A DNA stretch of 64,000 nt, taken from NCBI RefSeq assembly GCF_009914755.1, contig NC_060926.1. One strand, given 5' to 3'. The stretch is from the human T2T-CHM13v2.0 reference genome, Homo sapiens. A model generated the notes under the pieces. The model did no database searches. It worked only from the letters and a program-made list of their open reading frames with translations, and was not told where the DNA came from. Positions 33,501-36,500 of this stretch are shown piece after piece (the stretch's first letter is position 1; every line of letters begins with the position of its first letter). Made by a program: the position numbers and the translations under genes.

Positions 33501-36500
33501 GAACAAGTATCAAGCACACATAAATGCAGCCCAAAACACTTTGCTTAACTACAGCCACTCCTCACCTCCATGGCATGACCATAGTTCACTGCAGCCTTGA
33601 ACTCCTGGCCTCAGCCTCCCAAAGCATTGGGATTGCAGGCGTGAGCCGCCGTTGCCCTGCCTCTTTAAAAAATAATTATTATTATTATATTAAAAATCAT
33701 ATGGTGTATTCTTTTGATATCATGGTTCGTATATATATGTAGCCTGTGTAGCCTGAAGAGTGTCCAACAAAAAATTTAATTTAAAGTGGTCTCAGGTAGT
33801 TTGTTACCAGCCTGGGTAACACAGAGAGACCCTGTCTCTAATTAGCCAACCATGGTGGCTCATACCTGTAGTCCTAGCTACTCAGGAGGCTGGGGTGGGC
33901 TTGAGCCCAGGGGTTTGAGGCTACAATGAGCCGTGATCATGCCACTGCATTGCAGCCTGGGTGACAGAGTGAGACCGTGTCTCAACCAATCAATAAAACA
34001 AAGTGGTCATAAATAAATAAATAAAAATAAAGTGGTCCCTGCTTGGCAGTGTCCCAGGTAACTGGAAGAAGCAAGCCAATCCTCTCTGGAGAATGAAACT
34101 TTAGCCAGACCTCAGAGAATGCCTACGAAGTTCCAAGAAAGTGAGCAGCTGAGAACCAGTGTTCTCTTTAAAAAATAATAATTATTATTTTTTAAAGATA
34201 ATTTGTACATTTGATATATGGTTTTGATATGATATAAAAAATCATATCGTGGTTTCTTTTGCTCACTGTTCTATTTGTGCAGTGTGTTCATAGATCCAGA
34301 TGACATAGGGTATAGTCATAGCTCATTCACTGACTGCTGTGTATTATTCTATTGTGTGAACATACCATAATTTATCCTTTCTACTACTGAGAGATTTTTG
34401 AGAGATTATTTTATTTATTTATTTATTTATTTATTTATTTATTTGAGAAGGAGTCTCACTTTGTTGCCCAGGCTGGAGTGCAGTGGCGTTATCTCGGCTC
34501 ACTGCACCACCTCTCGGGTTCAAGCAATTCTCCTGCCTCAGCCTCCAAAGTAGCTGGGATTACAGGTGCACACCACCACTCCTGGCTAATTTTCATATTT
34601 GTAATAGAGACGGGGTTTCACCATGTTGCTCAGCCTGGTCTTGAACTCCTAACCTCAGGTAATCTGCCCACCTCGGCCTCCCAAAATGCTGGGATTACAG
34701 GTGTGAGCCACCATGCCTGGCCCTTTTTTGTTGCTGTTTTCGAGGTGGAGTCTGGCTCTGTTGCCCAGGCTGGAGTGCAGTGGTGCAATCTCGGCTCACT
34801 GCAACCTGTGCCTCTTGGGTTCAAGTGATTCTCCTGCCTCAGCCTCCCAGGTAGCTGGGATTACAGCTGCCCACCATCACACTCGGCTAATTCTTTTTTT
34901 ATATTTTTAGTAGAGACAGAGTTTCGCCATGTTGGCCAGGCTGGTCTCAAACTCCAGACCTCAGGTGATCCTCCCGCCTTGGCCTCCCAAAGTGCTGGGA
35001 TTACAGGCGTGAGCCACCGCACCCGGCCAAGAGATTTTTTGAGAGATATTTTGGCTGTTTCCAACTTTTGGCTATTATGATGAGAGCTGCTATGAACATT
35101 TTCTCCATGTGTCTCACTGATGCTGTATATGCCCTTCTGTTGGGCATATACAGGAGCGGAGTTGATGGGTTAGGACTATGTACACTGGTTCTCAGCTGCT
35201 CACTTTCTTGGAACTTTGTGGGCATTCTCTGAGGTCTGGCTAAAGTTTCATTCTCCAGAGAGGATTGGCTTGCTTCTTCCAGTTACCTGGGACACTGCCA
35301 AGCAGGGACCACTTTATTTTTATTTATTTATTTATGACCACTTTGTTTTATTGATTGGTTGAGACACGGTCTCACTCTGTCACCCAGGCTGCAATGCAGT
35401 GGCATGATCATGGCTCATTGTAGCCTCAAACTCCTGGGCTCAAGCCCACCCCAGCCTCCTGAGTAGCTAGGACTACAGGTATGAGCCACCATGGTTGGCT
35501 AATTAGAGACAGGGTCTCTCTGTGTTACCCAGGCTGGTAACAAACTACTTGAGACCACTTTAAATTAAATTTTTTGTTGGACACTCTTCAGGCTACACAG
35601 ATAACATAAGCACCGAATGCCAACATCCGTGAGGCCCCACTTGCTACAACTTTTGGGGAAGATTTTCTTCCCCTTCACCCAGAGAGCCACACTGGAGACA
35701 GGCAAGCTTCCCCACTGTCCCCTCCTGTGTGATGGGTCAGTTCTCATTCCCCGGCCCCAACGGCTTAGGGTTTGGAGTTCGTGATCTGCATGGTGTATGA
35801 CTGCTATAACAAAGTACTACAAGCCAGGTGGTTTTAGACAACAGAAACTCATTCTTTCATAGGTCTGGAGGCCAGAAGTTCAAAGTCAGGGTGTCAGTGT
35901 TGACCCCTGCCGAGGGCTCTGAGGGAGAATCTGGCCATTGGTTTCTGGCGGTTGCTGTGGTCCTTGGTGTTCCTGGGCTCACAGCTGCATCCTGCCTCTG
36001 CTCTCGCACAGTGTCTCCCTGTGTCTGTCCTCACTCAACTGCCATCTCTCTGTCTCCCTTCTTATAAGGACCCCAGTCCTTAAGGGCCCACCCTGCTCCA
36101 GTATGACCTCATCCTAACACATTACATCTGCAAAGCCCCCACCCCCCGCCCAAATAAGGCCAGATGCTAAGGTCCTGGGGTTTGGGACTTGAGTATGCCT
36201 TTCCGGGGGGGACACAGCCAGTCTGTAGCACATGGGTCCCTGTTAGACTGCCCACCTGGTCAGCCCTAGGCTTTCTCTTCTGCCCCCCATTCCTCCCATA
36301 GTCGCCAAAGAAAAGCACAAGTTCTCCAAGAACTTTCCAGAAATTTGGAGAACAAAAGTCAGCTTTGGCTTTCGCTTGCCTCACAGATTTTCTGCATGTT
36401 AAATGTTCGTTTTCTGTGGATTTCTGCCTCTAAGGCCAACTCGGCAGCAGTGCGGTTCAGAATCCTCTACGTTTGGTCTCACTTCCACCTCATTTCAATA

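What the first reader, a model, noticed from the sequence alone, without database searches (positions are those of the whole stretch)
33744..35600. 419-bp near-perfect intronic inverted repeat whose every mismatch is a G-U wobble in FER1L5 pre-mRNA
Seen: 33744-34162 is the reverse complement of 35182-35600, with no indels, a 1019-bp spacer and 5 differences (33795/35549, 33912/35432, 33933/35411, 34124/35220, 34127/35217). The arm includes non-Alu flanks plus an old deleted Alu, so this is a local duplication, not two independent Alus. On the sense strand all five differences pair G-U or U-G, giving 419 bp of uninterrupted duplex; on the antisense strand they would be A-C. If the two outcomes were equally likely, 5/5 has a 1-in-32 chance, and two sites are CpG decay, so this is only suggestive. 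Inference: a long perfect dsRNA (ADAR hyper-editing, endo-siRNA or MDA5/PKR substrate in a testis-expressed gene) and/or a substrate for recurrent inversion of the 1-kb spacer.
Basis: partly seen in the sequence, partly recalled or inferred. Interest (0 to 1): 0.8.

Follow-up and report, generated by a model that had tools for sequence, protein, structure and literature searches.

The report
Catalogued intronic inverted duplication in FER1L5
A 419-base stretch of a FER1L5 intron is repeated back-to-front about 1 kb away, so the unspliced RNA could fold into a long double strand, but the repeat is already listed in a published catalogue, showed no reads there, and its all-wobble mismatch pattern is no more than a mild coincidence.

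Summary
33744-34162 is the reverse complement of 35182-35600: 419 nt, no indels, 1019-nt spacer, 5 differences, all G/T on the + (sense) strand. The sense RNA folds into 419 uninterrupted pairs. The full arm occurs only at these two places in the genome, so it is a local inverted duplication and not two separate Alus.

It is not new. Barak et al. 2020 (PMC7006430, Table S8) list a chr2 pair in hg19 with the same arm length (419), identity (98.8067% = 414/419) and spacer (1019). Coverage was zero (FPKM 0, editing index NA) in both GTEx pools, one of which holds two testis samples. The match also rules out a CHM13 assembly artefact.

The wobble-only pattern is weak evidence: P = 0.031 under a symmetric null and 0.036 under the null measured on 35 Alus of the gene. 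Eight bases beyond the chosen ends there are a C.A and an A.A mismatch.

Best reading: a neutral inverted duplication inside an old L1-like fragment, either 5-12 My old or older and homogenised by gene conversion. Editing, siRNA production, MDA5 sensing and spacer inversion remain untested.

The parts
33744..34162 (+). Left arm of the inverted repeat (419 nt). Probably the derived, inserted copy.
   Evidence: reverse complement of 35182-35600 with 5 transitions and no indels; the full arm is found only twice in the genome; flanked by the degenerate direct repeats X1 and X2.
35182..35600 (+). Right arm of the inverted repeat (419 nt). Probably the source copy. It starts where the homology of the spacer's old L1-like fragment ends.
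   Evidence: dispersed-repeat homology of the spacer stops at or before 35171. None of the 36 such matches crosses into the arm.
33736..33743 (+). Possible 8-nt outward extension of the left arm (partner 35601-35608): 5 matches, then A.A, G.T and C.A.
   Evidence: 427-nt arms at 98%; per-position list; the sense MFE uses 424 in-register arm-arm pairs.
33792..34002 (+). Old 5'-truncated Alu inside the left arm (mirror copy about 35342-35552 on the minus strand), with AAAGTGGTC direct repeats at 33783, 34000 and 34029.
   Evidence: Alu homology limits; 48 of 208 aligned positions differ from the majority of 35 window Alus, more than any of those 35. (repeat coordinates).
34024..34150 (+). Inner non-Alu part of the arm (mirror 35194-35320). 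A weak, old dispersed repeat.
   Evidence: three other genomic matches at 73-81% identity, all confined to the inside of the arm.
34163..35181 (+). 1019-nt spacer: an old L1-like fragment (about 34219-34400 and 35037-35170) interrupted by two head-to-tail minus-strand Alus (34427-34722 and 34723-35035).
   Evidence: dispersed-repeat homology at 62-90%. (the Alus). The name L1 and its ORF2 C-terminal/3'UTR antisense placement are recalled, not given by a tool.
33661..33738 (+). X1: a degenerate direct copy of the start of the spacer, lying just left of the left arm.
   Evidence: Smith-Waterman score 70 against 34164-34235, versus 18.5 +/- 3.1 (maximum 39) for 300 shuffles; ungapped blocks match 25/26 and 21/25.
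34164..34260 (+). X2: the partner of X1, just right of the left arm. It is an internal part of the old L1-like fragment.
   Evidence: In one search, other copies of the repeat align through this stretch and continue upstream.

Best explanation
This is a selectively neutral local inverted duplication in the 11-kb intron of FER1L5 between the exons at 25712-25889 and 36964-37088.

Origin (inferred). A 419-427-nt piece of unique DNA that already carried an old truncated Alu (now the right arm) was copied in reverse orientation. The copy went into an old L1-like fragment about 1 kb upstream, and a short piece of that fragment (X1/X2) was duplicated on either side of the insert. That layout is what two replicative template switches would leave.

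Age. The arms differ by 1.2%. Either the event is 5-12 My old, or it is older and the arms have since been homogenised by arm-to-arm gene conversion.

Consequence (shown in silico only). When FER1L5 is transcribed, the sense pre-mRNA can fold into a 419-bp duplex with a 1-kb loop. The duplex leaves with the intron and has no demonstrated function.

The wobble pattern. That all five differences are G.U on the sense strand is a chance outcome of five transitions.
For: - Repeat and mismatches.
- Uniqueness: 2 of 42 genomic matches cover the whole arm; the other 40 cover the Alu core only. The inner flank has the 2 local copies plus 3 weak matches.
- Left arm is the insert: it lies between direct repeats X1 and X2 (score 70 versus shuffle maximum 39), and these are internal sequence of the old repeat that also forms the spacer. 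The right arm begins where that repeat's homology stops.
- Age: K2P 0.0121, giving 5-12 My at 0.5-1.2e-9 per site per year.
- Fold: 419 uninterrupted pairs in sense, and 424 in-register pairs in the full 1951-nt fold at -1212.2 kcal/mol.
- No artefact and no novelty: the pair is listed for hg19 with identical length, identity and spacer, with FPKM 0 and editing index NA in two GTEx pools.
- It belongs to a sizeable class: 197 such pairs in human RefSeq pre-mRNAs, of which only 20 are expressed above 0.01 FPKM. A separate preprint predicts 2,018 genome-wide.
- Chance pattern: P = 0.031-0.036 one-sided. The local strand bias measured on 35 Alus of the gene is 400 versus 379 transitions, with cross-ratios of 1.07 and 1.09, both within one standard error of 1.
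- No Rfam family at gathering score in 33300-36000.
Against: - 5 of 5 is still nominally below 0.05, and the measured local mutational bias does not explain it.
- X1 and X2 are much more diverged than the arms: 5 mismatches in 51 ungapped positions against 0.61 expected at the arm rate (P = 4e-4), plus a gap of about 46 nt. A single recent event does not account for both figures without adding gene conversion, error-prone junction synthesis or fast decay of A/T-rich sequence.
- The template-switch mechanism is inferred from layout only. No outgroup genome could be consulted.
- The zero coverage in GTEx comes from data poor in intronic RNA, so it cannot show that the duplex never forms.
- Only 1 of 3 other copies of the old repeat gave an above-shuffle collinear match to 33299-33500.
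Confidence: 0.75

Rival explanations
1. The sense-strand duplex is kept intact by selection. Only substitutions that still pair as G.U are tolerated, because the hairpin in FER1L5 pre-mRNA is used, for instance as an endo-siRNA or hpRNA-like precursor or as an ADAR-bound structure in spermatids.
For: All 5 arm differences are wobbles on the transcribed sense strand, which gives 419 uninterrupted pairs. The locally measured mutational strand bias is too small to produce this. FER1L5 is testis-enriched according to passages read in PMC9876558.
Against: P is only 0.031-0.036 one-sided and about 0.063 two-sided, from a post hoc test in a scan of very many windows. The A.C version would cost only 20 of about 860 kcal/mol, so stability gives selection nothing to act on. 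The next 8 positions include C.A and A.A. The published catalogue found zero coverage. There is no Rfam family. Full-text searches for FER1L5 with 'inverted repeat' and with 'RNA editing' each returned 0 papers.
Confidence: 0.05
2. The duplication is old, tens of millions of years, and the arms are a miniature palindrome kept at 98.8% by recurrent arm-to-arm gene conversion. The flanking direct repeats X1 and X2, which do not convert, show the true age.
For: X1 and X2 are about 80-90% identical against 98.8% for the arms. The arm Alu is the most diverged of the window's Alus at 23%, so an early event is possible. Arm-to-arm conversion that keeps identity above 99% is documented for large sex-chromosome palindromes (PMC8327919 and PMC8981503, abstracts seen in the listing).
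Against: X1 and X2 are A/T-rich, microsatellite-like sequence that mutates and slips fast, so they make a poor clock. Their alignment is ambiguous between a collinear and a scrambled order. Conversion in 419-nt arms across a 1-kb spacer was not tested. No outgroup sequence was available.
Confidence: 0.3
3. A strand-biased mutational process explains why all changes are C>T or A>G on the + strand. Candidates are transcription-associated asymmetry or deamination of the exposed non-template strand.
For: By definition all five are + strand C>T or A>G. Comparison with other Alus points to A>G in the left arm at 33912 (31 of 35 Alus carry A). It points to C>T at a CpG in the right arm at 35411 (25 of 35 carry G at the partner column). 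Both CpG differences keep the CpG in the left arm: 3 CpGs against 1. Transcription-associated asymmetry of this sign is established knowledge, recalled here and not looked up.
Against: The asymmetry measured on 35 Alus of the same gene is small and not significant: 400 versus 379, with cross-ratios of 1.07 (SE of log 0.085) and 1.09 (SE 0.17). It raises P(5/5) only from 0.031 to 0.036.
Confidence: 0.1
4. The repeat is an assembly artefact of T2T-CHM13.
For: None found.
Against: An independent assembly, hg19, holds a chr2 pair with the same arm length (419), identity (98.8067%) and spacer (1019).
Confidence: 0.01

Closest known systems
[quoted passage not shown] 2020, PMC7006430; read: abstract and Results passages, and supplementary file 1 sheets S6 and S8)
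   Same: It is one of the 197 listed pairs. The chromosome, 419-nt length, 98.8067% identity and 1019-nt spacer all match. Like most of the class it is intronic and has no read coverage; only 20 of 197 exceed 0.01 FPKM.
   Different: Nothing structural. The table gives coordinates only and does not comment on the G.U-only mismatches or on how the pair arose.
Long, highly paired predicted dsRNAs of dsRNAscan (preprint PMC11838218; read: section 10 and passages)
   Same: It meets their cut-offs of >300 bp and >96% paired. They count 2,018 of 5,134,754 predictions in this class.
   Different: Most of theirs form between inverted LINE elements and 88% are intergenic. This one is a genic duplication of unique DNA plus an Alu. 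Their supplementary tables could not be opened, so I do not know whether it is listed there.
Inverted Alu pairs (IR-Alus), the common ADAR and MDA5 substrates
   Same: Each arm holds an Alu in opposite orientation, inside a transcribed intron.
   Different: The arms are not independent insertions. They share the same truncation, the same flanking direct repeats and about 200 nt of non-Alu sequence, and they pair at 98.8%, against 74-89% for the window's ordinary inverted Alu pairs.
Templated inverted insertions and duplications made by replicative template switching (FoSTeS/MMBIR; PMC2621351, abstract seen in the listing)
   Same: The layout is X - inverted copy of nearby DNA - X - spacer - source. 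This is what two template switches would give.
   Different: The event is tiny (0.4 kb) and old. The junctions show no clean microhomology that I could establish, and the X copies are far more diverged than the arms.
Inversions mediated by inverted repeats (Aguado et al. 2014, PMC3961182, passages read) and inversions under 2 kb made by L1 twin priming (preprint 10.1101/2021.12.20.472354, abstract seen in the listing)
   Same: Two inverted arms flank a 1-kb segment that contains L1-like sequence.
   Different: The arms are not L1 sequence, so this is not twin priming. No second orientation has been observed. The longest perfect runs are 190 and 116 nt, much shorter than the repeats in the passages read, for example a 782-bp stretch at 99.9%.

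Membership tests
Long, nearly perfect inverted duplicated sequence in a pre-mRNA (Barak et al. 2020 class) | Arm length above 300 nt | tested here: met
   419 nt
Long, nearly perfect inverted duplicated sequence in a pre-mRNA (Barak et al. 2020 class) | Arm identity above 96% | tested here: met
   414/419 = 98.81%
Long, nearly perfect inverted duplicated sequence in a pre-mRNA (Barak et al. 2020 class) | Both arms inside one RefSeq transcript unit | tested here: met
   By the hub's gene table, both arms lie in the intron between exons 25712-25889 and 36964-37088. They are 7855 and 1364 nt from those exons. The pair is listed in Table S8.
Inverted pair of independently inserted Alus | Each arm is a separate Alu insertion with its own flanks | tested here: not met
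   The arms share non-Alu flanks and the same AAAGTGGTC repeats. The whole arm is found only twice in the genome.
DNA transposon with long terminal inverted repeats | Multiple dispersed copies of the terminal repeat | tested here: not met
   Outside the Alu core there are only these two full copies. The inner flank has 3 weak partial matches.
L1 twin-priming inversion | Both inverted segments are L1 sequence | tested here: not met
   Dispersed-repeat (L1-like) homology is confined to the spacer and stops at or before 35171.
hpRNA or endo-siRNA precursor, or hyper-edited ADAR substrate | Small RNAs or clustered A-to-G changes mapping to both arms | not testable with these tools
   No expression data are available here. 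The published table gives zero coverage and editing index NA. Full-text searches returned 0 papers.
Polymorphic inversion mediated by inverted repeats | Both orientations of the spacer seen among haplotypes | not testable with these tools
   Only one assembly can be read here. The hg19 table gives arm coordinates but not spacer orientation.
Known structured RNA family (Rfam 15) | Match at or above a family's gathering score | tested here: not met
   0 matches in 33300-36000 on both strands.

The most novel reading that the evidence does not exclude
The 419-bp hairpin of the FER1L5 pre-mRNA is under selection to stay fully paired on the sense strand, with only G.U-compatible changes surviving. 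The reason would be that it is processed or bound in male germ cells, as a human hairpin endo-siRNA source or a dedicated ADAR or dsRNA-binding-protein site. It would then be a rare functional long intronic dsRNA, born from a recent inverted duplication.
Probability: 0.04. Interest if true: 0.7.

Novelty: already known. Interest (0 to 1): 0.15.

Why it matters
Long, nearly perfect intramolecular dsRNAs are rare in human genes. They are the suspected triggers that ADAR1 editing must disarm to avoid MDA5 activation. A 419-bp duplex without a single non-pairing position is at the extreme of that class, so it was reasonable to ask whether it is expressed, edited or selected. The answer here is deflating. 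The pair is already in the published catalogue, it had no reads there, it leaves with the intron, and the wobble pattern is not statistically convincing. What remains of value is a small, well-delimited example of a templated inverted duplication, with a puzzling mismatch between the divergence of the arms and that of the flanks. Ape genomes could resolve that puzzle.

Tried and rejected
- Earlier findings of this scan were not open.
- Full-text searches for FER1L5 with 'inverted repeat' and with 'RNA editing' each gave 0 papers. Of the 128 papers that hold 'FER1L5', none of the 15 listed deals with this intron.
- I tried to decide which arm is original from the old dispersed repeat inside the arm (34024-34150). 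The homology stays inside both arms, so it is uninformative.
- I first read X2 as the A/T-rich tail of the L1 fragment. Alignment to other copies showed that it is internal sequence of the repeat, so I rejected that reading.
- I tested whether 33299-33500 is the collinear upstream part of the same old repeat. Only 1 of 3 copies (L018) scored above all 100 shuffles; L020 and L017 did not.
- Polarity of the difference at 33795 could not be settled. The multiple alignment puts it in a column where 29 of 35 Alus have A, while my own reading of the local context favours G, and the arm Alu is too diverged for the alignment to be trusted there. Polarity at 34124 and 34127 has no usable outgroup.
- A long-TIR DNA transposon, L1 twin priming and an assembly artefact were each considered and rejected; see the membership tests.
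- A class-level count of G.U against A.C over the other 196 catalogued pairs was not possible. They are given in hg19 coordinates, and only CHM13 can be read here.
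Full report
**1. The observation**

The repeat finder on 33000-36400 reports one outstanding inverted pair, 33736-34162 against 35182-35608: 427 nt, 98% complementary, 1019 nt apart.
- 33744-34162 against 35182-35600 is 419 nt with no indels.
- There are exactly five differences: 33795G/35549T, 33912G/35432T, 33933G/35411T, 34124T/35220G and 34127G/35217T.
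- All five place G opposite T on the + strand, which is the FER1L5 sense strand by the hub's gene table.

In the whole 64-kb window, 29 inverted pairs of at least 150 nt lie within 10 kb of each other. The next best is 315 nt at 85%, and the rest are 74-89%; these are ordinary Alu pairs. The repeat is real and far beyond chance.

One caveat concerns the ends.

**2. Anatomy**

A search of the window's own genome (3.1 Gb, 24 contigs) with the left arm gave 42 matches. Two cover the whole arm: itself and the right arm. The other 40 cover only query positions 48-293 at 74-83%, which is the Alu core.

The inner flank, 34010-34162, has the two local copies plus three weak matches at 73-81%. These stay inside 34024-34150.

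The arm Alu spans about 33792-34002.
- It differs from the majority of 35 other Alus of the window at 48 of 208 aligned positions (23%), more than any of those 35, which range from 5.6 to 20.6%.
- It is bracketed by AAAGTGGTC at 33783, 34000 and 34029, mirrored in the right arm.

So the arm is unique DNA into which an old Alu had inserted before the duplication.

The spacer, 34163-35181, consists of two head-to-tail minus-strand Alus (34427-34722 and 34723-35035) inside an old dispersed repeat. That repeat has many copies at 62-90% identity. From memory I recognise it as the antisense of an L1 ORF2 C-terminal and 3'UTR region; no tool named it. Its homology stops at or before 35171, and none of the 36 such matches enters the arm. 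The right arm therefore starts where that fragment ends.

No Rfam family reaches its gathering score in 33300-36000.

**3. How it probably arose**

The left arm is flanked by a degenerate direct repeat: X1 (33661-33738) and X2 (34164-34235).
- Their Smith-Waterman score is 70, against 18.5 +/- 3.1 (maximum 39) for 300 shuffles.
- Alignment to other copies of the old repeat shows that X2 is internal sequence of that repeat, not a tail, and that the copies continue upstream.
- One of three copies tested (L018) also aligns collinearly with 33299-33500, with a score of 70 against a shuffle maximum of 44. L020 and L017 do not exceed their shuffles.

The layout is therefore: old repeat, X1, inverted copy, X2, rest of the old repeat, source. 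I read the left arm as the derived copy. It was inserted with a duplication of the target, as two replicative template switches (FoSTeS/MMBIR-type; PMC2621351, abstract seen in the listing) or a comparable repair event would leave. This step is inference from layout.

**4. Age, and an unresolved point**

The arms differ at 5 of 419 positions (K2P 0.0121; Poisson 95% interval 0.4-2.8%). Without conversion this gives 5-12 My at 0.5-1.2e-9 per site per year.

X1 and X2 are much more diverged. The two ungapped blocks match 25/26 and 21/25. That is 5 mismatches in 51 positions against 0.61 expected at the arm rate (P = 4e-4), and X1 also lacks about 46 nt.

Three explanations are open:
- The A/T-rich, microsatellite-like X sequence decays fast.
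- The junction was synthesised with errors and extra switches.
- The event is old and the arms are kept alike by arm-to-arm gene conversion, as in the large sex-chromosome palindromes (PMC8327919 and PMC8981503, abstracts seen in the listing).

I cannot decide among these without ape and monkey sequence, which no tool here holds.

**5. The wobble pattern**

A transition between the arms gives G.U on one strand and A.C on the other. It gives G.U on the + strand exactly when the change was C>T or A>G on the + strand.

Polarity, where it can be inferred:
- At 33912, 31 of 35 window Alus carry A, so the left arm changed A>G.
- At 33933, 25 of 35 carry G in a CpG, so the right arm changed C>T on the + strand.
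- 33795 is ambiguous.
- Both CpG differences keep the CpG in the left arm: 3 CpGs against 1.

To obtain a local null I counted transitions in 35 Alus of FER1L5 against their majority and projected them onto the + strand.
- There are 400 of the 'wobble' kind against 379 of the other kind.
- Orientation-corrected ratios are 1.07 for C>T over G>A and 1.09 for A>G over T>C. The standard errors of the logs are 0.085 and 0.17.
- There is therefore no marked strand bias, and the per-site probability is about 0.51.

P(5 of 5) is 0.031 under symmetry and 0.036 under the local null. It is about 0.063 if the mirror outcome would also have been noticed. With the 427-nt arms the count is 6 of 7 transitions, P = 0.0625.

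The energetic difference is small. The arms joined by a tetraloop fold at -862.7 kcal/mol in sense and -842.7 kcal/mol in antisense, and both full-length folds use the arms in register. A post hoc result at P of about 0.03 from a scan of very many windows is not evidence of selection.

**6. What is known**

Barak et al. 2020 (PMC7006430) searched pre-mRNAs for inverted duplicated sequences. I read passages of the abstract, Results and Methods, and sheets S6 and S8 of supplementary file 1.

For human RefSeq transcripts they list 197 pairs longer than 300 nt and above 96% identity. One row reads chr2 97346843-97347262 and 97348281-97348700 (hg19), with length 419 and identity 98.8066826. That is 414/419 with a 1019-nt spacer, identical to the window's pair. 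That these hg19 coordinates lie in FER1L5 rests on my recollection of the gene's position; the match of three independent numbers makes the identification safe.

For this row the editing index is NA and FPKM is 0 in both pools. The 15-tissue pool holds two testis samples among its 30. Of the 197 pairs, only 20 exceed 0.01 FPKM.

The dsRNAscan preprint (PMC11838218, section 10 read) counts 2,018 predictions above 300 bp and 96% pairing among 5,134,754, with 88% of them intergenic.

FER1L5 is described as testis-enriched in man, and in the mouse it is expressed from postnatal week three (PMC9876558, passages).

Full-text searches for FER1L5 with 'inverted repeat' and with 'RNA editing' each returned no paper.

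**7. Verdict**

- The structure is real. It is present in two independent assemblies and is already catalogued.
- It is a member of a known class of rare but not unique long intronic inverted duplications.
- Nothing indicates function. It lies 7.9 kb and 1.4 kb from the flanking exons, encloses no annotated exon and matches no RNA family, and it had no reads in the one survey that looked. That survey used data poor in intron RNA.
- The wobble-only pattern is a mild coincidence.
- Inversion of the spacer by recombination between the arms is possible in principle, since the longest identical runs are 190 and 116 nt, but it is untested.
- Interest is low. The one loose end worth a look is the discordant divergence of arms and flanks.

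Noticed in passing
window 33472-33556: An 85-nt stretch matches at least 30 other places in the genome at 79-88% identity (query positions 173-257). It is therefore a younger dispersed repeat than its surroundings. It abuts a partial minus-strand Alu (about 33558-33660), which in turn abuts X1. The family was not identified.
   Followed up: partly
window 34427-34722 and 34723-35035: Two minus-strand Alus lie head to tail with no base between them inside the spacer. They differ from the window's Alu majority by 11.7% and 10.8%. The old repeat's sequence resumes on either side with a short repeated GAGAGAT-type motif (read).
   Followed up: no
window 7250-7564 / 12095-12409: The second-best inverted pair of the window: 315 nt, 85% complementary, 4.5 kb apart. 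It is an ordinary inverted Alu pair in an upstream FER1L5 intron.
   Followed up: no
window 33783-33791, 34000-34008, 34029-34037: AAAGTGGTC occurs three times in the left arm, mirrored in the right arm. It appears before the Alu, after the Alu body, and again after the A-rich tail. Either of the last two could be the Alu's target-site duplication.
   Followed up: partly
window 33662-33693 / 34167-34198: The A/T-rich starts of X1 and X2 are 88% alike both as direct and as inverted repeats (D5 and I3), because the sequence is nearly self-complementary. Orientation arguments based on this stretch alone are unsafe.
   Followed up: yes
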